64,000 nucleotides of DNA from a virus (lineage: Duplodnaviria > Heunggongvirae > Uroviricota > Caudoviricetes). The notes under the pieces are model-generated. The model was not told where the DNA came from. It ran no database searches and was given only the letters and a program-made list of their open reading frames with translations. The translations under genes were made by a program, and so were the position numbers. This document shows, piece after piece, positions 2,958-59,236 of the stretch (positions are counted from its first letter, which is position 1; every line of letters begins with the position of its first letter). The stretch is from the IMG/VR virus record IMGVR_UViG_2627853872_000003, one strand, 5' to 3'.

Positions 2958-3146
2958 ACCAGGGAGTATCTATGTCACGAGTCACAATTCCTGGCAGGCG
3001 CGCGGTTCGGATGCGCATGTCCGATCGTGTCTACCTGCCCGGGTGACATCCACAGCGAACCCGTTACGTCGGCTCGGACTACAGGCGCCATTTCGACCAC
3101 GCAAGTTGGGTTGCTGCATTAAATTGACGACGCGCGCTATCGATCA

Positions 3147-5323: not shown

Positions 5324-5940
5324 CGAGCTGCAACGCAGCGATCCGGAACGCTGAACCCTGCGCTTCGATCGGCGTTGATGGCCATTCCTTGGCCACGACA
5401 ACCCACAGGTCGCACGGTCAGCGAGGGGCGCGGGACCACACCGAGAACCAGACCAACGCCCGGCAGGCCCGCATCCGGACAATTCACAGCTGCTTTCGCC
5501 GCAGCATGCTCGACGGAATCCATCGCCGAATCATTCGGTCAATGTGCACCGCTACGCAGCGGTTAGCGAAATCGCGTTGGAACCGCGTAACACCGACCAG
5601 CCGCTCCACCCGCTTGGCGCCACGCAACCAGCTGCAACGTTCAGACCTCAAAAGAGGACGCCCACTACCGAGAACCTTCACCATCCAGGACTGGGTGTAG
5701 CTAGCGCGGACGGGGTCAGTACTGTGATTTCAACGCCCCACGCCGCGGGGTGGAGGTGCCCAGTTCTCGCGAGTTTAGGAAGCGACCCCTCCGCCGCAAC
5801 GCCTCATTCGATCGCTAAAGCGCCGCGAACAGCTCAGATGGATAACCCAGACTGGGTCATAAGTGGGTCAGCTCTTAATCCACTCTTAATTAACATGGAA
5901 TTCGGCTGAGTAGAAAAACCCCTCTGCCTGTACTTATACG

Positions 5941-5985
5941 GTGGTCCCGGCTGGGTTCGAACCAGCGACCCCTCGCGTGTGACTC
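5941..5985 (-). tRNA. tRNA 3'-terminal fragment (T-arm + acceptor 3' strand), putative att core
   Basis: Minus-strand sense reads ...gtc GCTGG TTCGAAC CCAGC CGGGACC A CC. This is a canonical T-stem/T-loop (TTCGAAC) followed by a 7-nt acceptor 3' strand and discriminator. No matching 5' acceptor strand (ggtcccg) or D/anticodon arms upstream, so it is partial. Confidence 0.45.
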
Positions 5986-18345: not shown

Positions 18346-18609
18346 GTCAATTGGGATACGAATCGCTTTCCTTCGGCGTGCCGCGCACTCGTGTCGCATT
18401 CGTCAGCCCCGGATGTGTGCCCGTAGCTTGCCCGTCAATCGCCGCGCCACGTGGCGGGAGCCGTGACGGCCGGGCCGCGACCCCGGTCATTCCGGCGGTC
18501 AGCCCCCCATAGGAGCCGTGGCACCGAATGAACCCTGTCCTCTGCGGATGTGGCAGGTGGTCGCGGCGCCGGTAGCCCACGTCCGCGTGAAGCAGGAGGT
18601 ACATCTCTC

Positions 18610-29734: not shown

Positions 29735-30016
29735 TCATGATGTCTCCTCCCCCTCTGCTCGTGATGCGTCGTGTCGCTGATGGCGTGTTTCTCGGTTCTT
29801 GGCCACGGCCCGCATCCACATACGCACGTAGTCGGACTCGTTGAGCGCAATGGGGACGGTGTTGATCCCAAAGAAGTTCGTGCCGACCAAGACGCCATGC
29901 GCGACGTGGTTGGTGGCCAACTCCGCCAGCGTCGGCATGGTCGCGGACGCCCCATCGTGTCCTCCGCGTTCGAGTGCCCCGTGCTGCCGCGCATACGAAT
30001 TCTCTTTACTCACACG
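29735..30016 (-). CDS. Small hypothetical protein downstream of polA
   Basis: Possible start [11 protein letters not shown]. Weak support. Confidence 0.3.
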
Positions 30017-39016: not shown

Positions 39017-39048
39017 CAGACCGACCACGAAACGCAGGAGGAGGACCG

Positions 39049-41860: not shown

Positions 41861-42814
41861 GTGAATCCACTGACGCAACGGGTCAAATACGAATTGAATC
41901 GTGTACTTCCGTCGATCAGCGACAAGCCTTCGACCAGACGTGCGCAGGTCTCAGCGATGCTGCGCTTCGGCGGCGGGTTTTTCAGTGAGGGCCGCCGCTG
42001 CTGGATCGACGTCGAGCTCGATACGCGCGAAGCCGCGGTGTTCTTGCGCGACGAGATCACCAAGCTCTTCGACGCGGCGCCGCGCGCGTTCGAGCTATCG
42101 GCGGGAACCTTCAAGGTGCGCCAGATACATCGCGCCCACAACCTAGCGGCGCAGGTGGGCCTGCTCAGCCCATCGGGCCGGCCGGTACTGGGTATGTCGC
42201 CGGCGGTCGTGGCAGGCACACGCGCTGACGCGGCAGCCGCACTTCGCGGTGCGTTCTTGGCAAGCGGACAGATCATCACCCACGAGCTCCGCCGACCGCG
42301 CCTCGAGGTTGTGTGCCCGACTGCCCCAGCGGCGATGGCACTCGGTGGGTTCGCCCGCCGCCACGGAGTACAGAGTCAGATGCGCGAATACACCCGCGAC
42401 GGAGCATCTGTCGATGTATTCGAGATTCGCAAAACCCCGGAGATAGGTAGATTCCTCATAGCCGTGGGAGCACCCGAAGCTGCACACACCCTCATGAGCA
42501 CGCGCCGCGAATCGATGAGCGTCGAGAACCTCGAGGCTGCCAACAGATCCAGGTTCATCCAGGCGGCACACGACCAAGCCGAATCAGTGGGGCGTGCGCT
42601 CCGAATCCTCGGCGATGACGTGCCACCACAGCTGGCCGAGGCGGCGCGACTACGCCTGGAGAACCCGGAAGCCCGAATGAGCGAGCTTGCAGCCAACGCC
42701 GATCCACCGATCACCAAGGACGCCTACGCCGGCCGAATCTGGCGCCTGCTGCAGCGCGCGGAAGAGCGCGCGAGGGACTCGGCAGCAGTTTCCGACAATG
42801 CCGCCGTTCGATAG
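41861..42814 (+). CDS. WhiA-like transcription regulator (paralog 2)
   Basis: C-terminal LENPEARMSELAANADPPITKDAYAGRIWRLLQRAE mirrors the WhiA HTH domain of paralog 1. Same overall architecture. Confidence 0.65.
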   Translation: MNPLTQRVKYELNRVLPSISDKPSTRRAQVSAMLRFGGGFFSEGRRCWIDVELDTREAAVFLRDEITKLFDAAPRAFELSAGTFKVRQIHRAHNLAAQVGLLSPSGRPVLGMSPAVVAGTRADAAAALRGAFLASGQIITHELRRPRLEVVCPTAPAAMALGGFARRHGVQSQMREYTRDGASVDVFEIRKTPEIGRFLIAVGAPEAAHTLMSTRRESMSVENLEAANRSRFIQAAHDQAESVGRALRILGDDVPPQLAEAARLRLENPEARMSELAANADPPITKDAYAGRIWRLLQRAEERARDSAAVSDNAAVR

Positions 42815-46604: not shown

Positions 46605-47171
46605 TCACGTCAGCTCCTGCGCTCCGGGATGCCTTTCCCCGGCTTCAGCCTCCGGGTGTAGATCCTTGGCGATCCGGGCAGCTGTACGTAGACCCATCAC
46701 GGAGTAGGCGATCACCGACAACCCCCACAGGACCAGCATCGCGTACCGGATTGGGTCGAGGTACTCAGGGCCTGGCGTCGGGATTATCAGTGCTAGCGCG
46801 CCGATGGCGGCATATAGCGCAAACGCCAACCCGCGGGAGGTGCGCAGCCATTGCCGACTTGCGAGGAATGGTCCGGCCAGCAGCCCGATACCGAATGCGA
46901 GGACGAAGGCGGCCCAGCCGAGCACAGCTGAGAAATCATGAATCATGTCGTAGCTCGACATACCGAAGCGATCACAACCCACACGCCGCGGATCGTCGTA
47001 CTCAAGTGCGCATAAGAACTCGCTTGTTCGTGTGCGCACTAGCCAGCGCAGTGCCATGAACAGCCCGGTCACCGCGCTGAACACCAGCGATGCGATGGCC
47101 AGGTCCGACGCGGCGGGATCTCGTCCTTCGCCGCTGGATCCGCTTGGAACAACAATGGGAATCGGAATCAT
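46605..47171 (-). CDS. Integral membrane protein (about 4 TM)
   Basis: Hydrophobic segments IASLVFSAVTGLFMAL, LGWAAFVLAFGIGLLAG, LAFALYAAIGALALII, AMLVLWGLSVIAYSV. Confidence 0.55.
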   Translation of the reverse strand: MIPIPIVVPSGSSGEGRDPAASDLAIASLVFSAVTGLFMALRWLVRTRTSEFLCALEYDDPRRVGCDRFGMSSYDMIHDFSAVLGWAAFVLAFGIGLLAGPFLASRQWLRTSRGLAFALYAAIGALALIIPTPGPEYLDPIRYAMLVLWGLSVIAYSVMGLRTAARIAKDLHPEAEAGERHPGAQELT

Positions 47172-47575
47172 TGGGTCTGCCTGCTTTCGTGTTTGGTGTA
47201 GATGTATGGGCCAGCGCCAGAATCGACGATCACAGGTATTCCCGCGGCGTCCGCCCGCCTGACGCAGTCCCAGGTACCGCGAGAATCCGCGTCAGGAAAA
47301 GCAAGGCAGACGTCGGCACCAAGGTCGACCATCTCTTGGTTTCGCAAGGGGCCAGCGGCTTTACCGTGTTCTTGCCACGCCGCTGGATGAGGTTCGACCA
47401 CGAACCCAAGCCTGTCGCCAATCGCGGCTGCGATGATGTCCGCCCCGCCGCAGGGGCATGCACCATGCACCACTGTCACCGTTCTCGGGTGGAGGTCGGC
47501 TGCAGTTTCACGGAGGGCGGTTTCGATTGTGGCCCGATCTGTCCAGCGGCGACTGCCGGTAATCAGAACGCGCAT
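47168..47575 (-). CDS. SLOG/DUF2493 (DprA-LOG-like Rossmann) protein
   Basis: MRVLITGSRRWTD...VVHGACPCGGADIIAAAIG...GADVCLAFP matches the GSR-motif SLOG fold frequently found in phages. Confidence 0.55.
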   Translation of the reverse strand: MRVLITGSRRWTDRATIETALRETAADLHPRTVTVVHGACPCGGADIIAAAIGDRLGFVVEPHPAAWQEHGKAAGPLRNQEMVDLGADVCLAFPDADSRGTWDCVRRADAAGIPVIVDSGAGPYIYTKHESRQTQ

Positions 47576-49956: not shown

Positions 49957-50046
49957 GATTCAAAGTGCCTTTCATTGGCAGTGATATTCATGCGAGATGC
50001 TAGGTCTAATGCGTGGTGCATGCGGAGCGCAACACCTATGAAGACA

Positions 50047-50080
50047 GAAGACCCGCACCCAGTTGCGAGTGCGGGTCTTC
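50047..50080 (-). terminator. Intrinsic terminator-like hairpin (12-bp perfect stem)
   Basis: gaagacccgcac ... gtgcgggtcttc with a 10-nt loop, 28 bp after the stop of 50108-50758. Confidence 0.55.
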
Positions 50081-50107
50081 ATATGCCGTCACACAGCGGT
50101 TCGCCGA

Positions 50108-50758
50108 TTAGGCGGCGGACGTCGTCCACCACTGGAATTGGCTGATGGCGGCTTCACGAAGGAAGCCGATCACCTGCTCGACGCTGTATCCAACGGCGGC
50201 GTATCCCGAGTTCTGATCGTCCAGCGCTCGCAGAACCTTCGCGTCGTTGTCATTGTTGGTAGGGACCTTGATCGCGACACCGGTAACCGCCTGTTCGCCG
50301 CGATGGAAGCAGGTCACCAGTTCATTGCGGATGTTCTTCTGCATGATCGTGATGTTCTTGGCCTCCGTGAACTGACCGGTGGCCGGATCAAGCACGATGT
50401 AGTCGACGGTCGGAGCCATGACCTGCTCCTTCTCGTACTTGCTGGTGCGCTGAGCGATGCCCAGAAGCCGGAAAAGGATCGGCTTGTTGAAGTGCTCTTC
50501 CGGAATTCCGCCTCCGCCACTGTTCGGGATAACGCCGATGTTGGGTGCGACAGAACTGACGCCCGCGTAACCCGCCGGCAGACCGACAGGAGCGGCGGTC
50601 GGCACGGCTGCAGCTGCCACAGGCGCCGCAGCGACGGGGGCAGCGGCAGGAACAGCGGCCGGTGCTGGAGCTGCGGCCACCGGGGCGGCTGCCACTGGAG
50701 CGGGGGCTGCTGGAGCGGCTGCCACAGGAACAGCGGCAGGAGCGATAGGAGCGGTCAT
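50108..50758 (-). CDS. Protein with Ala/Pro-rich N-terminus and conserved-looking C-terminal domain
   Basis: Start MTAPIAPAAV (ATG 50758, RBS AAGAGG). C-terminal domain is K/N/I-rich (IPEEHFNKPILFRLLGIAQRTSKYEKEQV...), unlike the local GC-driven composition. Confidence 0.55.
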   Translation of the reverse strand: MTAPIAPAAVPVAAAPAAPAPVAAAPVAAAPAPAAVPAAAPVAAAPVAAAAVPTAAPVGLPAGYAGVSSVAPNIGVIPNSGGGGIPEEHFNKPILFRLLGIAQRTSKYEKEQVMAPTVDYIVLDPATGQFTEAKNITIMQKNIRNELVTCFHRGEQAVTGVAIKVPTNNDNDAKVLRALDDQNSGYAAVGYSVEQVIGFLREAAISQFQWWTTSAA

Positions 50759-51160
50759 GGTAGTGCCTCTTTTCTGGTGCTGTTGAGTTGCTGTTGCTGA
50801 TCTATGCCGGTGTGGATGCATCGTCGACGGGCTTCCCTACCTGTCGAAGATGCATGCATCCGTGCCGACTGCCTAACTATTTACACCCCATGACCGACAA
50901 GCAACTGAGACGGCAAATGCCGGTTTTCTCGGCGTGTCGCGGCTTCAGTAGTGCCCCTTACACCGCGCGAAGACCGCTGTGATGTGGGGGCGTTGACGTA
51001 ACGCACGCGGTGGTCATCGGCCTGGCTGTGCGCCGTTTCAGGATCAGACAAAGTCAGCTCGTACAACTGGTGAAGCCTCTGCAGCCGTTGCGGTTTGGTC
51101 GCAGGTGACAGGTGCGCCGTCTATGCGCATCGGCGACCGTAGCCTTGCTCGGCGCGGCAC

Positions 51161-51814
51161 CTACACCAGGAATCGGTATACGTGCCCTGGACGGCCGGTT
51201 GGTGCTGGCTTACGCAGCTCCTCGGTTCGGCGGTATAGCAGTGAGCGGTCCAGGCGCTTGCGGGCTGCACCCGCGGTTGTCGGGCCGCAGACACTGAGCA
51301 GCGCGCGAACTTGGGCGAGAGTGGTCTCGTCGCCGAGCATGGCGCGTGTGGTGTCCGGGTCGACCAGCAGGCGCTCCCCCAGGCGCAAGATGGCCGACCT
51401 TGCGATCGCCGTGTGGCCGAATGGCATTGCCTCCGGTATCTGGGTCACTGGCACTGCGCCCCTGACCTCGGCGGGGACACGGGCCACCACGACGATCGAT
51501 ACGGTGTGTCCCCGTTCGTCGCGACCCGGGTCGCTGACGACGTCGACGACAGCGATGCCGCCGGTCAACTCGGTACCGGCCTTGTCCCGCACGATGCGCT
51601 GCGCGCACTGCTCGACGGTCTCCCCCTCCCAGGCGGCCAGCAGCCCACCAGGCAAAGTGATTTCGCCTTTGTGCGGTGCACCGGCGCGCTCGATCAGCAC
51701 GATCTTCGGCTCAGGGTCATCGGTGAGTGCAACGACATCCACGCTGAGCCAGGTGCCGTGCACCGGATGATCGTCGGGTGGCACGGCCAGGTTCGATTCG
51801 GTCATCGATCTCAT
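51161..51814 (-). CDS. NrtR-like protein: degenerate Nudix domain + C-terminal winged-helix-like domain
   Basis: Nudix-fold region LPGGLLAAWEGETVEQCAQRIVRDKAGTE has a degenerate REx2EE box. C-terminal TLAQVRALLSVCGPTTAGAARKRLDRSLL...GRPGHVYRF looks like a wHTH. The architecture matches NrtR-family ADP-ribose-responsive regulators. Confidence 0.6.
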   Translation of the reverse strand: MRSMTESNLAVPPDDHPVHGTWLSVDVVALTDDPEPKIVLIERAGAPHKGEITLPGGLLAAWEGETVEQCAQRIVRDKAGTELTGGIAVVDVVSDPGRDERGHTVSIVVVARVPAEVRGAVPVTQIPEAMPFGHTAIARSAILRLGERLLVDPDTTRAMLGDETTLAQVRALLSVCGPTTAGAARKRLDRSLLYRRTEELRKPAPTGRPGHVYRFLV

Positions 51815-53334
51815 GACCGCTGCCTCCTCGAGTGGCTGTAACGCTGATAGACACCGGTCTCACGGGCCAACGTTTCGCGCACTTCGGTGAAGCTGTATTG
51901 CCGCAACAGCTTTCCATCCTCGAACACCAGCTTCAGTTCGTTGTCGGCTTCCTGATCGGCATCGGCGTGTTCGATCAGGTACGGCTCGCCGCTCATCGCG
52001 CGTCGCACCGCCAATCGTCCGGTAGCCGACTTCTTGGATCCGTCATCGGTGACCGGGTCTTTGAGGATGCCGTGGCCGACACCGTCGATCTGAACCCATG
52101 TCGCCTTGACGGCCAGCTTGAAAACGTCGCGTGTTTGGTATTGGTAGGTGTAGGAACCGAAGCCGAAAACCACAGTGGTGGAGGCATAGCCCTGCACCAT
52201 CAGGTTCCGCGTGATCGCGTCAGCGCGCTCAAAGGTGATCGAATCCCCATAGATCGCGCCGATGTGAGGCTCCAGCTCGCGGTACCCCTTTGCGTTGGTC
52301 ACGGTGCCGAACGTCTCGGCTAGCAGGTTCACCACGCCCTTGCGAGCCGGACTGCCTTCGGGCGCCGCTGGATCTCCGCACAGGATCAGCTCAGGGTCAC
52401 CGCTGTCGGGCCGGATCACGAGCTTTCCGTCGCGAGCCATGATCTGTTCCTTGCGCGCGGGCAGATACTCGGTGAGCACCCGCCACAGATCCCAGGTGTC
52501 GGAGACGACCGACAGGATTCCTTCGGGATACAGGCTCAGCAGCCGATCGAAGGTCACCAGCTCGCCGTCTTGTCCGCCGGCACACATCACCGAGTGCTCG
52601 GTCGCCGGAACTGATGCGCCGATCAAGGCGTCGCCGTTGCCGGGATAGAACCGTTCGATGAACCGGATCGCGGGCAATCCGTCGGTGCCCGTGAAGCTGA
52701 CCAGGTGGCCCGCACCTGATGCGGCCGCCGCTGCGTCTCCAGCCATGCCCCGGTAGGAGAAGTCATGACCCTGGAACTGCACCGCGGTTTCATCGCCAGA
52801 CTCGGCAGCGCGTTCGTCGAGCAGCTTGCGGTTGTTCCAGGCGATGGTGGCACTGGTGATCGGCTGCCACAGCTCAGCCGACAACTGCGTCTCGAAGTAG
52901 TTGGTCAGCCAGAAGAACCGGGAATCGGTGTTCTCCACAGTTAGATACGGAACCCGCAAAGGTACTAGCGATCCTTCCCGCACCGCCCGCACACGCAGTG
53001 GCAGGTAGCCCAACGTGTGTAGGTCGCGGAAGTGCTGAACGCCAACCGTGTTCGGCCCCAACAGCGCGGTCACAAACCGCTCGTATCCGGCCAGCACCGG
53101 TTCGAGTTCGTCGGCGGTCAGGTCGAAGAACACCTGCCAGTCTTCGATCAGCCGCTGCAGATATGCCTGCAGACCGAAGAACACCGTGGCATCGATGCCC
53201 GGCACCCGGGTACCCCGCGCGGTGAGGTTGGAGTAGACGAACTCGGTTCCGTCCGGGTACTGGCGCCGGTGGTCGAGCTTGTAGGCGTCGGTGGCCAGCA
53301 GCGTGTCCAGCGCACGGTTCTGCTTGTCGTTCAT
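51811..53334 (-). CDS. Nicotinamide phosphoribosyltransferase (NAMPT/NadV)-family protein, candidate nicotinamide-ADPR transferase
   Basis: DTLLATDAYKLDHRRQYP and VFFGLQAYL motifs of the NAMPT family. Alternative start 53375. RBS AGGGGGAA before ATG 53334. Confidence 0.8.
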   Translation of the reverse strand: MNDKQNRALDTLLATDAYKLDHRRQYPDGTEFVYSNLTARGTRVPGIDATVFFGLQAYLQRLIEDWQVFFDLTADELEPVLAGYERFVTALLGPNTVGVQHFRDLHTLGYLPLRVRAVREGSLVPLRVPYLTVENTDSRFFWLTNYFETQLSAELWQPITSATIAWNNRKLLDERAAESGDETAVQFQGHDFSYRGMAGDAAAAASGAGHLVSFTGTDGLPAIRFIERFYPGNGDALIGASVPATEHSVMCAGGQDGELVTFDRLLSLYPEGILSVVSDTWDLWRVLTEYLPARKEQIMARDGKLVIRPDSGDPELILCGDPAAPEGSPARKGVVNLLAETFGTVTNAKGYRELEPHIGAIYGDSITFERADAITRNLMVQGYASTTVVFGFGSYTYQYQTRDVFKLAVKATWVQIDGVGHGILKDPVTDDGSKKSATGRLAVRRAMSGEPYLIEHADADQEADNELKLVFEDGKLLRQYSFTEVRETLARETGVYQRYSHSRRQRS

Positions 53335-53381
53335 CGGTTCCCCCTGTGTGTTGGTGTTGTCGGCAGTCCTGGCCTGCGTGT

Positions 53382-53792
53382 TCATCGTTGGTCCTCTGCT
53401 ATCCATTGACGGGCGATCTCGCAGAGCGCGATCCACACGGCGTCCTTCACACGCTCTTCCCAGCCCAGTTCGTTGAACGGGACCATGTCCGGATGTGTCT
53501 TCGCAGCTACATCGCGCACGGGGCCGTATGTCCACCCCAGCTGCTCGTACGCATGCCACCAACTGTCGTGCGCCTGTTCAGGCGTCGCATACCGGTCGGG
53601 GCCCATCATCTTCTCGGTGATTTCCAGGAACTGCGCCCGGAAATGCTCCTCGCGCGCCGACCAGGGCTCCGGTACGACGGGCGCGTTCACTGCGGCTGCC
53701 TGTAGCCGCGCGGCCTCGTAGATGAAGATGGCTTGTCGCTCAAGCAGAGTGCCTTTGGTCGGCCATTCGATGGCAGAAAAATTCTGAGTCAT
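53382..53792 (-). CDS. RyR (ryanodine-receptor Ry) domain protein
   Basis: [46 protein letters not shown] matches the bacterial/phage RyR-domain consensus (H..W....GW.YG....D...K.HP.lVP...L). Confidence 0.6.
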
Positions 53793-54676
53793 TTCGGTTC
53801 CTCGCTGATGTTGTGCAGGACGTCGATCACGTAGCGGCCAAGTGGGTGGATCTGTACTGCCGCGCCCTCGGGTGATGTCACGGCGGCCGCTACTGCCGAG
53901 CGCAGCGAGTCGGTGGTGTGGATGCTCCGGTAGTTGTCAGTCAAGACATCGGTGCCCTTGGTGAACCCGCCGTGGGTGATCCACAGATCAAGCTCGAAGC
54001 CGGCACCCAGTCCCTGAGCCAGCAGCGCGAACGTTCCACCGCCGTCGCAGATGTCATCGACCACCAAGTACCGGCCCGGTCGATCCTTCACCTCAGCGGG
54101 GGCGTTGTAGCCCAGAAGTTGTCCGGTGGCGGGATCGCGCTTCTTGTCGGCCACCGACACCGGCAGCTCTAGCTGCGCGGCGACTGTGCTCGCGCGCCGC
54201 AGCGAGCCGGCATCCGGACCGATCACCCCGAGGTAGTCGCCAGCGTCAACCGCCGCAGCCGCAACCTCGGCCAGGGAGATCATGTGAACGGAAACAGTGG
54301 GGTTGACGGCCCGCAGCGTGTCCAGCCACACCGGCGAGTGCGGGTCGATGGTGACTATCCCGGTGATTCCTGACAGCGCGGCCAGACGCGCGTTGGTGTG
54401 CGCGGGGCAGGGCGTGTCTTTGTCGCCGCGGGCGCTGGGCAGAAACGGCATCACCAAGATTCGGTGCGGGTACGCCGCTGTCAGAGCTGCCCAGTTGAAC
54501 ACGACGGTCCAGTCCGGCGCGGCTGTGTGCACCCAGAGCACCTGCACACCCGGGACGAGATCTGCCCCATCGACGGAGCGCACCGTCAGATCACCCATCG
54601 GGTAGGCGAATATCTCTATCGCAGCTGCTGTGAGCTGCCCCCCGTCATAGGCGAAGAACTCGTAGTCGTTCGTCAT
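53789..54676 (-). CDS. Ribose-phosphate pyrophosphokinase (Prs)-like protein, candidate ADP-ribose pyrophosphokinase
   Basis: PRTase type-I fold motifs [21 protein letters not shown] and the PRPP-binding loop [16 protein letters not shown]. Confidence 0.75.
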
Positions 54677-54684
54677 AGCAGAGA

Positions 54685-54727
54685 CCCTACACCACTTTCG
54701 TACATTTTGTACGTAAGTGGTGTAGGG
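54685..54727. promoter_or_regulatory. 43-bp nested palindrome (candidate NrtR operator / intra-operon attenuator)
   Basis: Outer arms ccctacaccact / agtggtgtaggg (12 bp perfect). Inner cgtaca-ttt-tgtacg. Located 8 bp upstream of the Prs-like start and 9 bp after the macro gene stop, overlapping the RBS region. Confidence 0.6.
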
Positions 54728-54736
54728 CTCAGGTGT

Positions 54737-55192
54737 TCAGCCGAACAGAACCAGCGTCACAGCGACCGGCGAAGCCTCTGCGACCTCACGAATGATCTGC
54801 TCGGCCACGGCAGGATCCAGACCGCCGATACCGCCGCCGATAAGTGGTAGCGCGACAGAACCGATCCCCTGCTTATGCGCCAGGTCTAGCCCCTGAGTCA
54901 GAGATGCGCGCAGCCACTGCTCGGTCGCATCGGGACCTGGCTGATCCTGACTCGCACAGTGGATGATGGGGCGACCCAGCCCGGCGTCACGGCTCGTGTT
55001 ACGAGTGAACACGGCCGACCCGGGCGTGATCCGCCCCTGCTGCGCAAGGATGCCGTACTGAGTCATCGCGTCGGGATAGCGGTCCGCCATCACCGAGGCC
55101 AGGCCCCCGGTGACGCCCTGGCAATTCACTCCGTGCGCCAATGCCTCAGCTGGATGGGCGAACAAGTCGCCGGTCTCGACGGTGAAGCTCAT
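54737..55192 (-). CDS. Macro domain (ADP-ribose binding/processing) protein
   Basis: GDLFAHPAEALAHGVNCQGVTGGLA, GSAVFT, ALPLIGGGIGGLDP are typical MacroD/YmdB-type motifs. Confidence 0.75.
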   Translation of the reverse strand: MSFTVETGDLFAHPAEALAHGVNCQGVTGGLASVMADRYPDAMTQYGILAQQGRITPGSAVFTRNTSRDAGLGRPIIHCASQDQPGPDATEQWLRASLTQGLDLAHKQGIGSVALPLIGGGIGGLDPAVAEQIIREVAEASPVAVTLVLFG

Positions 55193-56262
55193 CGATGCCT
55201 CCTCAGACTCGATCCGAATGGGGGACGTGACAGATTGTCTTGTATGTCCCCCAGCTGCCAGGGTTCAATGGCACGGGCCCGGCTCAGTTTTGCGAGCTTG
55301 CCGAGCAGTAGGTCCGACATCTTGTCGCCCTGAGCTTCGGCGTCACAGTCACCTTGGACGTCTACGAGAGCCGGATACCTTGCGTCGATGTGGAAGCCGA
55401 CCATTGGGGTTGGATACAGATCCGATGGCAACTTGCGCAGCATTTTTCCGTACGGTCGGCCAGCCGTTATGTGAGCGGCCTCGTCAGTCCCAATCAGCGC
55501 ACGTGAGTGCTCCGGTCTGTTGACTCTCAGTGAGAACTTGAATCCCAGTTGAGCATCCAGACCTTCAAGCGTCGACTCGGAGAAGTGTTCCCCGGCCAGA
55601 ACCACGTGCACTCCGGTCAAGCCTCCGTCCAGTGCGATGCCCATGAGCCGGTATCGCTTCTCTGGACTCTCCTGCAGGACCCAGCAGAAATCGTCGATGA
55701 CCGCTACCAGATCTGGTAGTGGCGGCCAGTCGCCTTCGACAGAGTGTGCACAGCGTCTGCGGCGGTACTCAGCGCTACTTCGGCATCGATGTAGTGCGAG
55801 CAGTTTTGTGCGCCGTTGAATCTCCTCGGCGATCGCGGAGATCACCATGTCAAAGGATTCTTCGGAGGAGTTGTCGGCCCACACGTTAGCGACCGTGTGG
55901 GGCAACTTTTCGAAACCTCGGAACATAGCGGGCCCCATGCCGTCAGCCAAGAACAGCGAAAGCCGATCCGGCCCATACCTGGTCGCGAGCGACAAGACCA
56001 TCGATCGCAGGAAGTAACTTCTTCCTGCCCCGGTGCGCCCCTGCACGGCACCGTTGGTTCCGTCACGTGAAAAGTCCAGGGTGCTCAGCTCTGGGATAAG
56101 CGCATCGCCCACACGCAGATGGCCTATCGGTATCGCGACCGAGTCAGCGTTAGCGTTCCGCGCCCATGCCGCCTCGGGGTCGTAGGTTTCGATGTCGCTG
56201 ATACCGAGCACGTCGAAGAAGCCCGGAACCCTGCCCTCATTTTCTGTATCGATGGTGCTCAT
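55189..56262 (-). CDS. FtsK/SpoIIIE-like single-domain ATPase
   Basis: Walker A GRTGAGRSYFLRSMVLSL, Walker B VAVIDDF. Stop overlaps the macro gene start (ATGA), indicating translational coupling. Confidence 0.7.
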   Translation of the reverse strand: MSTIDTENEGRVPGFFDVLGISDIETYDPEAAWARNANADSVAIPIGHLRVGDALIPELSTLDFSRDGTNGAVQGRTGAGRSYFLRSMVLSLATRYGPDRLSLFLADGMGPAMFRGFEKLPHTVANVWADNSSEESFDMVISAIAEEIQRRTKLLALHRCRSSAEYRRRRCAHSVEGDWPPLPDLVAVIDDFCWVLQESPEKRYRLMGIALDGGLTGVHVVLAGEHFSESTLEGLDAQLGFKFSLRVNRPEHSRALIGTDEAAHITAGRPYGKMLRKLPSDLYPTPMVGFHIDARYPALVDVQGDCDAEAQGDKMSDLLLGKLAKLSRARAIEPWQLGDIQDNLSRPPFGSSLRRHR

Positions 56263-57050
56263 GTGGCATCGTGATCCTCATCGTCCTCCTCATCCATTCC
56301 GAGGGAGACGGCTACGGGGACTTCCGGGTCGTCAACGTCCAGATCCGGGTGATACGTGTGCGCAGACAGCACCGCTCGAAACACTCCAGCACACGTGAGG
56401 GTGACAATCGATGCTGGGTGCTCTCGCGTGTACAGCTCGACGGGTTCCTTGAATACCGCGGCGATAGCGCTCATCTTCTTGATCACGTCCGAGCCGAACG
56501 CCTGGACCTTGCCGACCTTCAGCGGTGCCGTCGTCTGGTCGTCACCAAGACCGCGCGTGCTCAGAATTTCCTTGGCGCCGCGGGCCGACAGTCGAGAGAT
56601 CGTCGATGCGATCGGGAAGTCGTCGACGTCTTGCAACGGGATGTAGTGCCGCGAGTCCGCTTCTCCAGGGGCTCCGTCGGTGAGTGTGCGCATGAGCAGC
56701 GTGGAGCCGTTATCGACGACCGACAACTCGACATCACACTGAGATTCCTTGTCGATCTTCTTGACGGCCGACGCCGCGTTCTTGGCTGCCGACAGCAACT
56801 GGGAAGCCTGATCGGTCGAGAACTTCACCAGAGGCAGCGTTCCGTCACATCCGAAGATCGCTTGGCCCGGACTGTTTCCGTCCGAGGCGATGAACGCCAA
56901 GCTGTTCTGCGTCCCAACTTCGCCGGTCTCGACGCGCGTGGAGCCCAGTACGACAGCGGCATGCGTGGGGTCATCGTTGCCTGCATACGCCATGACCTTG
57001 GCTGCTGAGAGTCCTTGCACGAATAGTTGGTTGTCGATAACAACGGTCAT
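56259..57050 (-). CDS. Hypothetical protein with acidic C-terminal tail
   Basis: 263 aa ending DEEDDEDHDAT. 4-nt overlap with the downstream FtsK-like gene. Two repeated about 120-aa halves are possible (clamp-like?), which is unsupported. Confidence 0.45.
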   Translation of the reverse strand: MTVVIDNQLFVQGLSAAKVMAYAGNDDPTHAAVVLGSTRVETGEVGTQNSLAFIASDGNSPGQAIFGCDGTLPLVKFSTDQASQLLSAAKNAASAVKKIDKESQCDVELSVVDNGSTLLMRTLTDGAPGEADSRHYIPLQDVDDFPIASTISRLSARGAKEILSTRGLGDDQTTAPLKVGKVQAFGSDVIKKMSAIAAVFKEPVELYTREHPASIVTLTCAGVFRAVLSAHTYHPDLDVDDPEVPVAVSLGMDEEDDEDHDAT

Positions 57051-57199
57051 GTCCCGTCGTCCCTTCCATTGATTGAAACGGCGCCTGGTCGTTCACGCGT
57101 TGTGTCCGCGCTAGATGAAGCGAGCCGCAATCTAGGGCTGATCGACCGACGATCCAGACAGCGGCGCGTTGCCGGAAATGCCTGAGAGCACACCCACGA

Positions 57200-57487
57200 T
57201 CACGCATCGCTCAAATCGCCCCTATCAATTGCCCCGCTGACCGGTTTCATCAGCAGATCCGATCCAATGCGGATCCGGGTCGTGGAGTTGTCGCCAACGC
57301 GCGTGCGTACGCGCAAGACTGCCGTTGCCCCGGATTCGCTCAATGTCACGCTCAGAGGTGCGTTCAGTGCGTCGATCAGCACCTCGCTCACACGACCCGT
57401 CAGAATTCCGCTCAAATCTGCAGTCAATGTTGTGATACGGGTTAAACCGCCACGGCGGAACAGCTTTTCGCGATCCTGCACGATCAA
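57200..57487 (-). CDS. Hypothetical small protein
   Basis: 95-aa ORF. Confidence 0.4.
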   Translation of the reverse strand: MIVQDREKLFRRGGLTRITTLTADLSGILTGRVSEVLIDALNAPLSVTLSESGATAVLRVRTRVGDNSTTRIRIGSDLLMKPVSGAIDRGDLSDA

Positions 57488-57668
57488 CGCTCAGATGTCC
57501 GCCCAGTCTTTACATCGCTCAGCTGCGTGCTCAATGCGACGATACGAAACCTCCGGCTGCGGCCCGGCGCACGAAGACCGTGAAACAGGGACGTGACATA
57601 CATAGCGCCGCGGCCGCTGTCGTGTCGCGTGCGATCTGTTTCCAGGTTCCGCCGCACACTGCGCCACC

Positions 57669-58445
57669 ATGAGCTCGCTGAAATCTCCACCTGAAAACGA
57701 CAAGCTGCTGAGTCAGCTCCTACAGACGCTATTCGCGCTGGCTGCCGTGGCGGTCATTGTGGTGCTGATCGTGAACGGCACCTTGTTCGGCAAGGACAAC
57801 CGGATACCGTCGGAGCTCAGCAAAATCACCGGTCAGGAACAACGCGATGAAGGAGCGCCACCGAGCGAATCGACAATAAGCGGTACCGGAACTCCCAGTC
57901 CTGATCCATCCACACTGACCGTCGCTGCGCCCGGATCCAAAAATGGATACGCCCGAGCACGATTCGGACAACCGTGGACAGATGACGTCGACATCGAAGG
58001 TGGGCACAACGGCTGCAGTACCCGAGACGATATTTTGCAGCGCGACCTCACTGGCATAACCCTTTCCGGCTCATGCAAAGTCATGTCCGGAACACTTGCC
58101 GACCCGTACACCGGACAGGTCATTTCGTTCGTCTACGGCAAGAAGACATCCGCACTCGTACAGATCGATCATCTGGTGAGTTTGGCGAACGTTTGGGTCT
58201 CCGGCGCAGCGACCTGGGACTTGCCCGAACTCAAGAAGATCGCGAATGATCCACTGAATCTGCTTGCCGTCAACGGATCTTCAAACGAGAGCAAGGGCGA
58301 GAAATCAGCCGATCAGTGGCTGCCGGAAAACACAGCTTTCGACTGCTCGTACGTCAAGCGCCAAGTGATGGTGAAGAACAAGTACCGGCTGACGGTGACA
58401 GCTGCCGAGAAAGCCACTATGCAGCAGTTTTACGGCGCCTGCTGA
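57669..58445 (+). CDS. Membrane-anchored DUF1524/HNH-like (GmrSD C-terminal type) nuclease
   Basis: N-terminal TM helix LFALAAVAVIVVLIV. Motifs IDHLVSLANVW...NLLAVNGSSNESKGEKSADQWLP resemble the His-Me finger DUF1524 family. Confidence 0.55.
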   Translation: MSSLKSPPENDKLLSQLLQTLFALAAVAVIVVLIVNGTLFGKDNRIPSELSKITGQEQRDEGAPPSESTISGTGTPSPDPSTLTVAAPGSKNGYARARFGQPWTDDVDIEGGHNGCSTRDDILQRDLTGITLSGSCKVMSGTLADPYTGQVISFVYGKKTSALVQIDHLVSLANVWVSGAATWDLPELKKIANDPLNLLAVNGSSNESKGEKSADQWLPENTAFDCSYVKRQVMVKNKYRLTVTAAEKATMQQFYGAC

Positions 58446-58501
58446 ACGGCTCGACGTGCCGTACCCTTCGGCCTCGTTGACCGGGATCTACGGTGCCCGC
58501 C

Positions 58502-59236
58502 ATGACAAACACACTTACGCGTTTAGCCGCTGTCGGGTTCAGCGCCGCCGTCGCGCTCCTGGCCGTCGGATGCCAACAGCAGCGGCCCAGCGAGAACACG
58601 GCGGCCAGCGCTTATGTTTCCGCGACGGCAGGAGCCGAAACCCACCTTGATGTGAACCAATTGATGAATGCTGCGATAGCAACAGCCCGGGCGATGCGGT
58701 CCGCACACCTGATGTTCTCCAGTACTGGAGTTACAGATCTGCTGGCGAAGGCCTACGCCGCTGACGTGACCCTCACCCCGATCGTTGCAGCGCGGGGAAA
58801 CGCCACGCTGAAGATCAACGGAGACTACAGCCAGACGCAGTTCCAGACTGTAGAGGCGGATTTGTGGATCCAGGACGCCAACGGCACATTCGTCGATGCC
58901 GGGCCGGCGCAGGGCACTCTGAACCCTGCGGCCCTCTTGGACCCACAACACGGAGTCGCCAGTGTGCTCGCCGCCGTGGCATCTCCTGTAATTGTTGATC
59001 CCAAGGCACACGCCGGTCCGGACGAGGCTGTGAAAGTCGCTGGGACTTTGTCCGCCGCGGCAGCCAGCGTGCTGGTGCCGCGGTCCTCGCTGGGAGACGC
59101 GACGGATTTTTCGGTGGCCGTGTGGCTGGCTCCAGTCGACCCGCATCCCCTTCTCCAGATAATCGTCACCGTCGGTGAAGGATCACTGACCCTCAGAGCC
59201 GATAGGGCCGAGCCTTTCGCCGTTTCGGTCCCGTAG
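58502..59236 (+). CDS. Lipoprotein (LppX/LprAFG-like)
   Basis: MTNTLTRLAAVGFSAAVALLAVGC lipobox. Size (about 244 aa) and composition fit the family. Confidence 0.5.
   Translation: MTNTLTRLAAVGFSAAVALLAVGCQQQRPSENTAASAYVSATAGAETHLDVNQLMNAAIATARAMRSAHLMFSSTGVTDLLAKAYAADVTLTPIVAARGNATLKINGDYSQTQFQTVEADLWIQDANGTFVDAGPAQGTLNPAALLDPQHGVASVLAAVASPVIVDPKAHAGPDEAVKVAGTLSAAAASVLVPRSSLGDATDFSVAVWLAPVDPHPLLQIIVTVGEGSLTLRADRAEPFAVSVP

What the first reader, a model, noticed from the sequence alone, without database searches (positions are those of the whole stretch)
51161..55192. Compact NAD+-reconstitution-like counter-defence operon: macro + Prs-like + RyR + NAMPT-like + NrtR-like
Five co-directional, tightly packed minus-strand genes: a macro domain protein, a ribose-phosphate pyrophosphokinase homolog with an intact PRPP loop, a RyR-domain protein, a NAMPT-family protein and a Nudix-wHTH regulator. 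The Prs-like plus NAMPT-like pair is the signature of the described phage NAD+ reconstitution route (ADP-ribose pyrophosphokinase + nicotinamide-ADPR transferase). That route rebuilds NAD+ after NADase-type immunity (Thoeris, SIR2, DSR, SEFIR). The macro domain, the RyR domain, an NrtR-type sensor-regulator and coupling to an FtsK-like ATPase do not belong to the minimal two-gene pathway. Together they suggest an expanded, regulated variant on a non-virion mobile element.
Basis: partly seen in the sequence, partly recalled or inferred. Interest (0 to 1): 0.85.

Follow-up and report, generated by a model that had tools for sequence, protein, structure and literature searches.

The report
ADP-ribose-switched NAD+ rebuilding operon, mycobacterial island
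A strain-variable genomic island of Mycobacteroides abscessus carries the known phage pathway that rebuilds NAD+ from ADP-ribose, together with the known enzyme that destroys Thoeris alarm signals and a dedicated repressor that probably switches the operon on only when ADP-ribose appears; the parts are known, while this regulated, non-phage packaging is a new variant.

Summary
The five minus-strand genes are real and correctly typed. The Prs-like and NAMPT-like pair is NARP1 (Adps + Namat). The NAMPT-like protein carries the Namat clamp motif GSYTYQYQTRD, and its best solved relative is the SpβL1 Namat crystal structure. The RyR protein is a 75% identical, gapless orthologue of RyDEP (mycobacteriophage DyoEdafos gp78) and keeps all four active-site residues. 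It sits in the same slot, between Adps and Namat.

The Nudix protein folds like NrtR-family repressors and has a degenerate Nudix box. In 22 of 22 mycobacterial loci its relatives lie directly after Adps-Namat. Each locus has a clade-specific palindrome over a leaderless promoter in front of Adps. Phages that lack the regulator lack the palindrome.

So there are probably two units: p263-FtsK-macro, then an autoregulated adps-rydep-namat-nrtR operon. The FtsK gene, RyDEP and the whole NARP1 block are independent insertions in sister islands. The macro protein is DarG-like, not Adpp-like.

The element is inserted in tRNA-Val(cac), is absent from some strains and shows no virion genes in 58 kb.

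NARP1, NARP1 with a macro phosphatase, RyDEP and nrtR-prs-nadV operons are all published. Verdict: a new variant of a known kind, of moderate interest.

The parts
54737..55192 (-). Stand-alone macro-domain protein (151 aa) of the DarG-like clade. It is the last gene of the upstream unit p263-FtsK-macro.
   Evidence: Family hits: PF01661 1.2e-11; PADLOC DarG 64 bits; best PDB match is the M. tuberculosis DarG macrodomain 5M3I at 1.8e-10. The DarG 'PTKK' lysine position is an invariant Gln in this family. No tblastn hit to the Vibrio-type NARP1-AP macros. The gene is present in an island without NARP1 (L073).
54685..54727 (.). 43-bp palindrome (20-nt arms, core CGTACA-AAA-TGTACG). Predicted operator of the NrtR-like repressor. 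If transcribed it would also form a strong hairpin.
   Evidence: Arms are 95% complementary. The site is unique in the window. It is conserved in L004, L016, L072 and L075/76, and clade-specific palindromes occupy the same position in all Nudix-carrying loci. It is absent in phages DyoEdafos and Aegeus and in L073. RNA fold is -35.5 kcal/mol, z = -7.2.
54684..54689 (-). -10-like hexamer TAGGGT, 7 nt upstream of the Adps ATG. This is a leaderless-type promoter and it overlaps the right arm of the palindrome.
   Evidence: Read from the sequence. A TAnnnT box lies 6-7 nt before the Adps ATG in all 22 related loci. The promoter function itself is inferred.
53789..54676 (-). Adps (ADP-ribose pyrophosphokinase; Prs-like), 295 aa.
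   Evidence: phrog_619 5.5e-42. 123 bits and 36% identity to DyoEdafos gp77, against at most 37 bits to any solved Prs. Below the TIGR01251 cut-off. tblastn hits 1148 phage records.
53382..53792 (-). RyDEP orthologue (RyR-domain 2'/3'cADPR glycosidase), 136 aa.
   Evidence: 75% identical, without gaps, to DyoEdafos gp78. 240 bits to its crystal structure. H75, W78, H100 and D117 are all conserved. The gene is a 471-bp indel relative to sister island L075.
51811..53385 (-). Namat (nicotinamide ADP-ribose transferase; NAMPT-like), 524 aa. An alternative start at 53340 would give 509 aa.
   Evidence: Best PDB matches are 9W5W/9W5X (SpβL1 Namat) at 487 bits, against about 245 bits for NAMPTs. The SCH motif GSYTYQYQTRD fits the Namat consensus. 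56% identity to DyoEdafos gp79.
51161..51814 (-). NrtR-family regulator (degenerate Nudix domain plus C-terminal winged HTH), 217 aa. Predicted ADPR-responsive autorepressor.
   Evidence: AlphaFold2 pLDDT 87. Foldseek top hits are AraR 5BS6/5DEQ, Shewanella NrtR 3GZ5/3GZ6 and 2FML, full length, TM 0.63-0.69. The Nudix box RE.xEE is replaced by RI.xDK. The C-terminal GRPxxVY motif is present. In 22 of 22 loci the gene follows Adps-Namat.
55189..56262 (-). Single-domain FtsK/EccC-like ATPase (357 aa). Its Walker A reads GAGRS. It is an accessory insertion and not a conserved partner.
   Evidence: PF01580 4e-16; TIGR03924 EccCa domain 155 bits. The gene is missing in L016 and L075/76, where 42 bp replace about 1.06 kb.
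56259..57050 (-). p263, a conserved backbone protein of unknown function that precedes macro in all island variants.
   Evidence: No Pfam, PHROG or PADLOC hit. Homologues occur in Mycolicibacterium and on plasmid pCBMA213_1. The AlphaFold model failed at pLDDT 35.
5940..5982 (-). 43-nt 3' fragment of tRNA-Val(cac). It marks the left junction of the >58-kb island that carries the operon.
   Evidence: Strains L066 and L068 are identical to the window up to 5982. There they carry an intact tRNA-Val(cac) followed by chromosomal genes.

Best explanation
Window 51161-54676 is a four-gene, translationally coupled operon, adps-rydep-namat-nrtR. It is a regulated form of NAD+ reconstitution pathway 1 (NARP1).

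Proposed mechanism:
1. At rest, a dimer of the NrtR-like protein sits on the 43-bp palindrome that overlaps the leaderless Adps promoter. This keeps the operon, including its own gene, repressed.
2. When NAD+ is cleaved (by TIR, SIR2 or other NADases), ADP-ribose accumulates. It binds the catalytically dead Nudix domain and releases the repressor.
3. [quoted passage not shown] This silences the alarm and yields more substrate and more inducer.
4. Adps converts ADPR + ATP to ADPR-pyrophosphate.
5. Namat joins ADPR-pyrophosphate to nicotinamide to give NAD+.
6. As ADPR is consumed, repression returns.

The upstream macro gene belongs to the island backbone (p263-[FtsK]-macro). It probably supplies free ADPR from ADPR derivatives, such as ADPR-1''-phosphate made by RES-type NAD+ phosphorylases, or ADP-ribosylated targets.

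The whole block is cargo of a >58-kb island inserted in tRNA-Val(cac) of Mycobacteroides abscessus. The island carries EccB/EccC and several FtsK-like ATPases, and no virion genes are visible.

What is shown: gene content, orthology, motif and residue conservation, the predicted fold, operator conservation, the modular indels and the insertion site.

What is inferred: every biochemical activity, ADPR as the effector, repression itself, and the benefit as counter-defence.
For: Namat:
- 487 bits to the 9W5W/9W5X Namat structures, against about 245 bits to NAMPTs.
- The clamp motif GSYTYQYQTRD fits the consensus GSXΦXΦXΦTRD.

Adps:
- 123 bits to DyoEdafos gp77. That protein, together with gp79, made NAD+ from RyDEP-treated 2'cADPR in vitro.
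- At most 37 bits to any solved Prs.

RyDEP:
- 75% identity without gaps; H75, W78, H100 and D117 kept; 240 bits to the crystal structure.
- Same slot between Adps and Namat, with the same 4-bp overlap with Adps, as in phages DyoEdafos and Aegeus.

Regulator:
- NrtR-family fold over the full length.
- The Nudix box carries the same EE-to-(E/D)K change as the inactive, ADPR-responsive M. smegmatis NrtR.
- In 22 of 22 mycobacterial loci the gene follows Adps-Namat.

Operator:
- A palindrome lies 17-19 nt upstream of a TAnnnT box, which itself lies 6-7 nt before the ATG, in all regulator-containing loci. The palindrome sequence differs by clade.
- It is absent in the two regulator-less phage operons and in the NARP1-less island.

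Precedent: nrtR-prs-nadV operons with ADPR as anti-repressor.

Modularity and island.
Against: - No experiment exists on these proteins. ADPR as ligand, DNA binding and repression are all inferred.
- The palindromes do not contain the GT-N7-AC core typical of NrtR operators, nor the mycobacterial GTTTTCGA-N7-TCGAAAAC site.
- The long palindrome could instead, or also, act as a U-less terminator after macro.
- Adps is only 36% identical to the tested phage enzyme.
- The macro protein is not of the Adpp/Poa1p type, and it occurs without NARP1 in M. aubagnense. Its link to the pathway therefore rests on adjacency alone.
- The Adps-Namat-NrtR core is syntenic and chromosomal in several species groups. 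NARP1 is reported to be enriched in non-mobile DNA. A housekeeping role is therefore as plausible as counter-defence for the core.
Confidence: 0.7

Rival explanations
1. The module is housekeeping ADPR recycling, not counter-defence. The Adps-Namat-NrtR core would be a normal mycobacterial NAD+ homeostasis device. It would rebuild NAD+ after self-inflicted cleavage (RES/MbcT-type toxins, sirtuins, ADP-ribosyltransferases), and the island merely carries a copy.
For: - The triad has conserved flanks for 10 kb or more within the M. fortuitum, M. llatzerense and M. gordonae species groups.
- It sits in ordinary chromosomal context in M. camsae.
- No relative of the regulator was found in 50,697 phage genomes or in IMG/VR.
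- The AntiDefenseFinder preprint reports NARP1 enriched in non-mobile DNA and suggests housekeeping roles.
- NrtR regulators are classic NAD-metabolism regulators.
Against: - In this window the operon is cargo of a strain-variable island.
- It has acquired RyDEP, whose only known activity is destroying or sequestering Thoeris signals.
- Between species groups only the 3.1-kb triad is shared. Copies occur on a 344-kb linear plasmid and in prophage-like regions.
- The two readings are not mutually exclusive.
Confidence: 0.3
2. The macro protein is not part of the NAD+ route. It is a DarG-like de-ADP-ribosylase: either an antitoxin-like or anti-DarT function that removes ADP-ribose from DNA, or the partner of the unknown upstream p263.
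For: - Best family matches are DarG (PADLOC 64 bits, NCBIfam DarG 57 bits, PDB 5M3I).
- It always follows p263, and it is present, duplicated, in an island without NARP1.
- It is separated from Adps by the promoter/operator.
Against: - The position of the DarG/TARG1 catalytic lysine is an invariant Gln in this family. The identification of that lysine as catalytic comes from my own recollection of the DarG literature.
- There is no DarG C-terminal domain.
- p263 has no DarT (DUF4433) or other ART signature.
- In three island variants macro lies directly upstream of NARP1, as in NARP1-AP.
Confidence: 0.3
3. This is ordinary nicotinamide salvage. The Prs-like enzyme makes PRPP and the NAMPT-like enzyme makes NMN, as first assumed for nrtR-prs-nadV operons.
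For: - Pfam, PHROG and NCBIfam names say Prs and NAMPT/NAPRT.
- Namat retains some Nam-PRPP activity in vitro (section heading listed).
Against: - The Prs-like protein scores below every Prs family cut-off and at most 37 bits to solved Prs enzymes.
- The Namat clamp motif is present.
- The closest tested relatives make NAD+ from ADPR.
- No NMN adenylyltransferase is encoded in the operon.
Confidence: 0.03
4. The 43-bp palindrome is a transcription terminator or insulator hairpin after macro, not a protein operator. The Nudix protein would then be an enzyme or would regulate something else.
For: The predicted RNA hairpin is very stable (-35.5 kcal/mol, z = -7.2) and begins about 10 nt after the macro stop codon. 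U-less terminators are known in mycobacteria (own knowledge).
Against: - Shorter palindromes occupy the same position relative to the -10 box and ATG in loci where the upstream gene is divergent or absent (L008, L026-L029), so nothing is there to terminate.
- The palindrome sequence changes with the regulator clade.
- It is absent wherever the regulator is absent.
Confidence: 0.1

Closest known systems
NARP1 with RyDEP in mycobacteriophage DyoEdafos (gp77-gp78-gp79; bioRxiv 10.64898/2026.05.28.727677)
   Same: Identical gene order Adps-RyDEP-Namat with overlapping stop/start codons. RyDEP is 75% identical with all catalytic and ligand residues kept. Namat is 56% identical. The host family is also Mycobacteriaceae.
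   Different: Adps is only 36% identical, so RyDEP appears to have moved between two diverged NARP1 lineages. The phage operon has no regulator, no palindrome and no macro gene, and it sits among phage replication genes. Here the operon is on an integrated island without visible virion genes.
nrtR-prs-nadV operons of gamma-proteobacteria (Shewanella, Acinetobacter ADP1, Chromobacterium; Rodionov et al. 2008, PMC2330246)
   Same: An NrtR-family Nudix-wHTH repressor is encoded in or next to a Prs-paralogue plus NadV-like operon. A palindromic operator lies at the promoter, and ADPR is the anti-repressor. The Acinetobacter order, prs-nadV-nrtR, is the same as here.
   Different: The phylum differs, the regulator subfamily is distinct and the operator lacks the GT-N7-AC core. 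Those operons were read as PRPP/NMN salvage. I did not test whether they are true Adps/Namat, although AntiDefenseFinder counts 469 NARP1 in Acinetobacter. They have no RyDEP and no macro, and they were not described on mobile elements.
NARP1-AP (Adps-Adpp-Namat of Vibrio phage Gary; bioRxiv 10.64898/2026.01.28.702374)
   Same: A macro-domain gene lies next to NARP1. The plausible logic is the same: convert an ADPR derivative into the ADPR that Adps needs.
   Different: Adpp is Poa1p-like and sits inside the operon. The macro here is DarG-like, lies upstream of the operon's own promoter, is not detectably similar to phage Adpp by tblastn, and also occurs in an island lacking NARP1.
Bacterial NARP1 (Paenibacillus foliorum pfAdps/pfNamat; PMC12774641)
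   Same: Adps-Namat is encoded in bacterial DNA rather than in a phage, and the Namat clamp motif is conserved.
   Different: No regulator or accessory genes were reported for that system, and it is only distantly related in sequence.
MsNrtR (MSMEG_3198), the nadABC repressor of M. smegmatis (PMC6800001)
   Same: Nudix + wHTH architecture. The Nudix box is degenerate with the same EE-to-EK type change. It is an autorepressor released by ADPR.
   Different: The operator differs (GTTTTCGA-N7-TCGAAAAC against CGTACA-N3-TGTACG and its clade variants). The target differs (de novo nadABC against NARP1). The gene lies at the 3' end of its target operon rather than divergent from it. I did not compare the two protein sequences directly.

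Membership tests
NARP1 (Adps + Namat) | The Adps-clade Prs homologue lies immediately next to a Namat homologue. | tested here: met
   The genes are adjacent and separated only by RyDEP. Adps scores 123 bits to DyoEdafos gp77 against at most 37 bits to solved Prs enzymes, and it has 1148 phage relatives.
NARP1 (Adps + Namat) | Namat selectivity-clamp helix motif GSXΦXΦXΦTRD, with aromatic residues at the X positions. | tested here: met
   The protein has GSYTYQYQTRD, which fits the consensus given in PMC12774641. The top PDB hits are the Namat structures 9W5W/9W5X.
NARP1 (Adps + Namat) | Namat SCL loop (β1-β2) supplies an Arg/Lys/Tyr-type residue that stacks on adenine. | not tested
   The loop is variable in sequence and length. 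I made no structural model of this Namat.
NARP1 (Adps + Namat) | Biochemistry: ADPR + ATP gives ADPR-PP; ADPR-PP + nicotinamide gives NAD+. | not testable with these tools
   Inferred from the DyoEdafos and SpβL1 enzymes.
RyDEP (RyR/R12-domain defence-evasion proteins) | PF02026 RyR domain in a small stand-alone protein, homologous to DyoEdafos gp78. | tested here: met
   PF02026 9e-9. 75% identity over 135 aa with no gaps. 240 bits to the RyDEP crystal chain.
RyDEP (RyR/R12-domain defence-evasion proteins) | Catalytic dyad H75/D117 plus ligand residues W78 and H100. These mark the glycosidase type rather than the sponge type. | tested here: met
   All four residues are conserved at identical positions. 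Conservation alone does not prove catalysis: the tested homologues that did not cleave the signals (six of eight bound them) are described as highly conserved with DyoEdafos RyDEP.
NrtR family (Nudix-related transcriptional regulators) | N-terminal Nudix-like domain plus C-terminal winged-HTH domain. | tested here: met
   The AlphaFold2 model has pLDDT 87 and pTM 0.84. Full-length Foldseek hits are AraR, Shewanella NrtR (including the DNA complex 3GZ6), 2FML and NadQ.
NrtR family (Nudix-related transcriptional regulators) | Perturbed Nudix signature, consistent with a sensor rather than a hydrolase. | tested here: met
   GX5EX7REUXEEXGU is replaced by G-x7-E-x7-RIVRDKAG here, and by RIVREK in the family consensus. 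MsNrtR has RQUXEKXDU.
NrtR family (Nudix-related transcriptional regulators) | Palindromic operator upstream of a co-localised NAD-related target operon. | tested here: met
   Clade-specific palindromes overlap the Adps promoter in all regulator-containing loci and are absent from regulator-less loci.
NrtR family (Nudix-related transcriptional regulators) | Typical operator form: a 21-bp palindrome with a GT-N7-AC core. | tested here: not met
   The cores here are CGTACA-N3-TGTACG, CTCACA-N3-TGTGAG, GGACA-N4-TGTCC and GGGCA-N4-TGCCC. The 2008 paper itself notes divergent motifs in some groups.
NrtR family (Nudix-related transcriptional regulators) | ADPR releases the protein from DNA. | not testable with these tools
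   Inferred from the Shewanella, Synechocystis and M. smegmatis NrtR proteins.
NARP1-AP phosphatase Adpp (Poa1p-like macro) | Macro-domain gene within two genes of Adps/Namat. | tested here: met
   The macro stop codon lies 60 bp upstream of the Adps start. The adjacency is the same in L016, L072 and L075/76.
NARP1-AP phosphatase Adpp (Poa1p-like macro) | Homology to Poa1p or to Vibrio phage Gary Adpp. | tested here: not met
   tblastn against 50,697 phages gave 26 hits, none in Vibrio phages, and the one neighbourhood I checked (Rhodococcus phage Trina) has no NARP1 nearby. No Poa1p hit in the PDB at E < 0.01. The best matches are DarG macrodomains.
DarG antitoxin | Macrodomain with a catalytic Lys (the PTK motif) plus a C-terminal DarT-binding domain, next to darT. 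| tested here: not met
   Only the N-terminal 141 positions of the 329-position DarG profile are matched. Lys is replaced by an invariant Gln. There is no DUF4433/DarT neighbour.
Integrative (possibly conjugative) element | Site-specific insertion, with empty sites in other strains. | tested here: met
   The junction lies at 5982/5983 inside tRNA-Val(cac). L066 and L068 have the intact tRNA and lack the element.
Integrative (possibly conjugative) element | Own integrase, a complete transfer apparatus and a right-hand att site. | tested here: inconclusive
   The right end lies beyond the window. Only EccB/EccC, several FtsK-like ATPases and an SLT lysozyme are seen. The integrase at 1-1209 lies outside the insertion.

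The most novel reading that the evidence does not exclude
In mycobacteria the common form of NARP1 may not be the constitutive phage pair. It may instead be a self-limiting, damage-inducible module in which a dedicated NrtR-family repressor uses ADP-ribose, the debris of NAD+ cleavage, as both inducer and pathway substrate. Resident elements (islands, giant plasmids, prophage-like regions, chromosomes) would carry this regulated form. In M. abscessus it has been stacked with the Thoeris-signal glycosidase RyDEP and a new Gln-type macro clade on an island bearing type VII secretion genes. Strains carrying the island would then blunt NADase-based immunity from inside the cell, which could alter their susceptibility to therapeutic phages and to incoming plasmids. 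By extension, the long-puzzling nrtR-prs-nadV operons of 2008 would be regulated NARP1 systems.
Probability: 0.4. Interest if true: 0.65.

Novelty: new variant of a known kind. Interest (0 to 1): 0.5.

Why it matters
It would show how an anti-immunity metabolic pathway is domesticated by resident elements: expression is tied to the very breakdown product it recycles. It offers a concrete, testable explanation for the old observation that NrtR controls a second 'prs' together with nadV. It shows RyDEP moving as a cassette between phage and non-phage NARP1 lineages. It also concerns M. abscessus, a pathogen treated with phages. A common, strain-variable island that rebuilds NAD+ and destroys Thoeris signals could influence phage susceptibility and gene flow. 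The biochemical core, however, is already published, so the gain is in regulation, modular evolution and host range rather than in a new mechanism.

Tried and rejected
1. Whole-region megablast gave no context. Against phages it found only a 55-bp match to Mycobacterium phage Tourach gp74 (the PRPP-loop region). Against plasmids it found only p263 on pCBMA213_1, which is not syntenic.
2. I looked for virion genes. The 'tape measure' PHROG hits are just an SLT lysozyme domain in a 275-aa protein, and the 'terminase' hits are weak P-loop matches of FtsK-like ATPases. I rejected both as evidence of a prophage.
3. The AlphaFold model of p263, built to test whether it is a toxin partner of macro, failed (pLDDT 35). 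A profile search of the PDB found nothing. Its function remains unknown.
4. Rfam found no RNA family in 50000-58000. The sigma-70 consensus scan found no promoter, as expected for mycobacterial promoters.
5. I searched the window for further copies of the operator and found none, so I saw no wider regulon.
6. A scan of IMG/VR for the regulator found none. This scan depends on peptide patterns, so distant relatives could have been missed.
7. I considered and rejected an active ADPR pyrophosphatase role for the Nudix protein, because the box is degenerate, a wHTH is present and an operator is present.
8. I considered and rejected canonical Prs/NadV salvage.
9. I did not build an Adps/Prs phylogeny because no housekeeping Prs sequences were available locally. 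I relied on the score gap instead.

Full report
**1. Observation**

The window contains five co-directional minus-strand ORFs at the coordinates given. Pfam assigns the following:
- Macro, 54737-55192.
- A weak type-I phosphoribosyltransferase hit, 53789-54676.
- RyR, 53382-53792.
- NAMPT_N plus NAPRTase, 51811-53385.
- NUDIX, 51161-51814.

PHROGs calls the second 'ribose-phosphate pyrophosphokinase' (5.5e-42) and the fourth 'nicotinamide phosphoribosyl transferase' (5.8e-179). The PRPP loop [11 protein letters not shown] is present. Three junctions are 4-bp stop/start overlaps: Adps/RyR, RyR/NAMPT-like and NAMPT-like/Nudix. The only gap is 60 bp, between macro and the Prs-like gene. Upstream, an FtsK-like gene (55189-56262) and an unknown 263-aa gene (56259-57050) are likewise overlapped onto macro.

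**2. The Prs-like/NAMPT-like pair is NARP1**

- The best solved relatives of the NAMPT-like protein are 9W5W/9W5X at 487 bits, against about 245 bits for genuine NAMPTs. Those two entries are the SpβL1 Namat structures.
- That paper defines a Namat-specific clamp motif, GSXΦXΦXΦTRD. The window protein has GSYTYQYQTRD.
- The Prs-like protein scores at most 37 bits to any solved Prs, including mycobacterial enzymes. It falls below every NCBIfam Prs cut-off.
- It scores 123 bits (36% identity) to DyoEdafos gp77. It has 1148 phage relatives annotated as Prs.
- DyoEdafos gp77 and gp79 were shown in vitro to make NAD+ from RyDEP-treated 2'cADPR.

**3. The RyR protein is RyDEP**

A May 2026 preprint describes DyoEdafos gp78, inserted between Adps and Namat, as a glycosidase. 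[quoted passage not shown] Its catalytic residues are H75/D117, and W78 and H100 hold the ligand.
- The window protein is 75% identical to gp78 over 135 residues without a gap. All four residues are at the same positions.
- It scores 240 bits to the deposited crystal chain.
- Phages DyoEdafos and Aegeus have the same order Adps-RyDEP-Namat, with the same 4-bp Adps/RyDEP overlap as here. They have neither a macro nor a Nudix gene.
- RyDEP is 75% identical but Adps only 36% and Namat 56%. RyDEP therefore seems to have moved as a cassette between two diverged NARP1 lineages.
- The sister island L075 supports this. It is collinear with the window at about 79% nucleotide identity but lacks exactly 471 bp containing RyDEP.

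**4. The Nudix protein is an NrtR-family regulator dedicated to NARP1**

- Its Nudix box is degenerate: RE.xEE is replaced by RI.xDK here and by RIVREK in the family. This resembles the inactive, ADPR-responsive M. smegmatis NrtR, which has RQUXEKXDU.
- The C-terminus ends in the GRPxxVY motif seen in 2FML.
- An AlphaFold2 model built on 36 homologues is confident (pLDDT 87, pTM 0.84).
- Its best PDB matches cover the full length: AraR (5BS6/5DEQ), Shewanella NrtR including the DNA complex (3GZ5/3GZ6), 2FML and NadQ, with query-normalised TM-scores of 0.63-0.69.
- Homologues at 41-83% identity were found in 22 mycobacterial species-representative genomes. In 22 of 22 the gene lies directly after Adps-Namat in the same orientation.
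- A further copy lies on the 344-kb linear M. avium plasmid pS2b.
- No relative was found in 50,697 phage genomes, although 104 Mycobacterium phage records carry Adps. None was found in IMG/VR either.

**5. A conserved operator and promoter**

In every regulator-containing locus, the roughly 50 bp before the Adps ATG holds a palindrome. It is followed 17-19 nt from its centre by a TAnnnT box that lies 6-7 nt before the ATG. This is the layout of a mycobacterial leaderless promoter with a repressor site between -35 and -10 (the promoter rule is my own knowledge).

The palindrome changes with the regulator clade:
- CGTACA-AAA-TGTACG in M. abscessus.
- TTCTCACAWTTTGTGAGAA in the M. gordonae/M. 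camsae group.
- ATATGGACATTTATGTCCATAT in the M. llatzerense group.
- AGATATGGGCAAATATGCCCATATCT in the M. fortuitum group.

Other findings on the site:
- The two phage operons without the regulator have no palindrome. Nor does the M. aubagnense island without NARP1.
- In the window the site is a 43-bp palindrome at 54685-54727 with 20-nt arms at 95% complementarity. It is unique in the window.
- It does not match the GT-N7-AC core of classical NrtR sites or the mycobacterial nadABC site. It should therefore be insulated from the host NrtR.
- If transcribed from upstream it would also form a -35.5 kcal/mol hairpin. An additional insulator or terminator role cannot be excluded.
- Rfam finds no RNA family here.

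**6. Consequence for the 'five-gene operon'**

The data favour two units: p263-FtsK-macro, and an autoregulated adps-rydep-namat-nrtR operon. Comparison of island variants shows the pieces are independent modules:
- Window and L072: p263-FtsK-macro-Adps-RyDEP-Namat-NrtR.
- L016: the same without FtsK.
- L075/76: without FtsK and without RyDEP.
- M. aubagnense L073: p262, two tandem macro genes and no NARP1 at all. The downstream genes follow directly.

So the FtsK-like gene is an occasional insertion. Its Walker A also reads GAGRS rather than GAGKS. Macro belongs to the island backbone rather than strictly to NARP1.

**7. The macro protein**

A January 2026 preprint shows that 15% of phage NARP1 operons include a Poa1p-like macro phosphatase, Adpp. 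It converts ADPR-1''-phosphate, the product of RES-type NAD+ cleavage, into ADPR. The window macro is not of that type:
- tblastn finds 26 phage homologues, none in Vibrio phages, and the one neighbourhood I checked (Rhodococcus phage Trina) has no NARP1 nearby.
- Poa1p is not hit in the PDB.
- The best matches are DarG macrodomains: 5M3I, PADLOC DarG at 64 bits and NCBIfam DarG.
- Yet the DarG 'PTKK' lysine position is an invariant Gln in this family, there is no DarG C-terminal domain, and there is no DarT neighbour.

The substrate is therefore open. Feeding free ADPR to the pathway is plausible but rests on adjacency only.

**8. The element**

- Sequence left of 5982 is identical in strains that lack everything to the right. 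There an intact tRNA-Val(cac) and ordinary chromosomal genes follow.
- The window keeps only the 43-nt 3' fragment of that tRNA (5940-5982). The operon therefore lies about 45 kb inside an island of more than 58 kb inserted in tRNA-Val.
- The integrase at 1-1209 belongs to a separate 6-kb islet that is present in all these strains.
- The island encodes a family-A DNA polymerase, helicase, two WhiA paralogues, an SLT lysozyme, an SPFH protein, several FtsK-like ATPases and EccB/EccC. There is no capsid, portal, terminase or tail gene in the part seen.
- Its right end and its own recombinase lie outside the window. 'Non-virion' therefore holds only for the visible 58 kb.

**9. Counter-defence or housekeeping?**

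Within species groups the Adps-Namat-NrtR triad has conserved flanks. Between groups only the 3.1-kb triad is shared. The AntiDefenseFinder preprint reports NARP1 enriched in non-mobile chromosomal DNA and very common in Acinetobacter. Acinetobacter is the genus whose prs-nadV-nrtR operon was described in 2008, with ADPR as anti-repressor. The original NARP1 paper also noted non-mobile bacterial copies and hinted at regulation by ADPR.

The core may thus be a general ADPR-recycling device. In this island, the acquisition of RyDEP and the mobile context argue for a role against NADase and Thoeris immunity. The two roles are compatible.

**10. Comparison and verdict**

Everything enzymatic here has a published counterpart:
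- NARP1 (2024).
- Bacterial NARP1 (NAR 2026).
- NARP1-AP (January 2026).
- RyDEP within a mycobacteriophage NARP1 (May 2026).

NrtR control of prs-nadV dates from 2008. I found no paper in the searchable library that links NrtR to NARP1 mechanistically.

What is new here:
- A dedicated NrtR subfamily and operator system attached to NARP1 across Mycobacteriaceae.
- Its absence from sequenced phages.
- The stacking with RyDEP and a Gln-type DarG-like macro on a tRNA-Val island of M. abscessus.
- The clear modular indels.

I rate it a new variant of a known kind, with interest 0.5.

Noticed in passing
window 5940-5983; L066 15940-16013: The left junction of the large island lies inside tRNA-Val(cac). 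The window keeps only the 43-nt 3' fragment of the tRNA. Strains L066 and L068 have the intact tRNA followed by a tRNA-Gly/Cys/Val cluster and chromosomal genes.
   Followed up: yes
window 1-5982: A separate islet of about 6 kb carries a tyrosine integrase (1-1209) and two RNase_T/DEDDh exonuclease genes. It is present even in strains that lack the big island, so this integrase is probably not the island's own recombinase.
   Followed up: partly
window 47168-47575 (-): A small YAcAr/SLOG-family protein (PF10686) lies 3.6 kb downstream of the operon. SLOG domains are predicted nucleotide or ADPR-derivative binders (own knowledge), so this may be a second NAD/ADPR-related cargo gene on the island.
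   Followed up: no
window 55189-56262 (-): The FtsK/EccC-like single-domain ATPase has Arg in place of the Walker A lysine (GRTGAGRS). It may be a non-catalytic or regulatory domain. Relative to sister islands it is a clean insertion of about 1.06 kb.
   Followed up: partly
window 56259-57050 (-): p263 is a conserved backbone protein with an acidic C-terminal tail and no family hit. It also occurs on Mycolicibacterium plasmid pCBMA213_1, and on a Tsukamurella plasmid where a source names it a DNA polymerase III subunit. AlphaFold2 failed (pLDDT 35).
   Followed up: partly
window 10204-12171, 18550-20616, 59308-63585 and beyond 64000: The island carries at least four FtsK/SpoIIIE-type ATPases. 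They include a 1425-aa EccC and an FtsK+AAA fusion, and EccB lies next to EccC. No other ESX core genes (EccD, MycP) were seen within 10 kb beyond EccB, which suggests a reduced or repurposed type VII-like apparatus.
   Followed up: partly
window 39013-40044 and 41861-42814 (+): Two WhiA paralogues (LAGLIDADG-like plus HTH) are encoded 1.8 kb apart on the island, near a family-A DNA polymerase (30010-32805) and a ResIII/DEAD helicase (37043-39016).
   Followed up: no
window 57669-58445 (+) and 58493-59236 (+): A protein with only the C-terminal GmrSD (DUF1524-type) nuclease domain and a hydrophobic N-terminus sits next to an LppX/LprAFG-family lipoprotein, between EccC and the p263 unit. The arrangement is conserved across island variants.
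   Followed up: no
L073 6001-6949 (Mycolicibacterium aubagnense AP022577.1): A related island carries two tandem paralogues of the Gln-type macro protein and no NARP1 genes. The macro gene therefore has a role independent of NAD+ reconstitution.
   Followed up: partly
L013-L015 (M. abscessus), upstream of Adps: In a prophage-like M. abscessus locus the Adps-Namat-NrtR triad is preceded by a GmrSD_N-only protein and a resolvase instead of macro. Its operator is a degenerate version of the window's (GGGACAAAATGTACC).
   Followed up: partly
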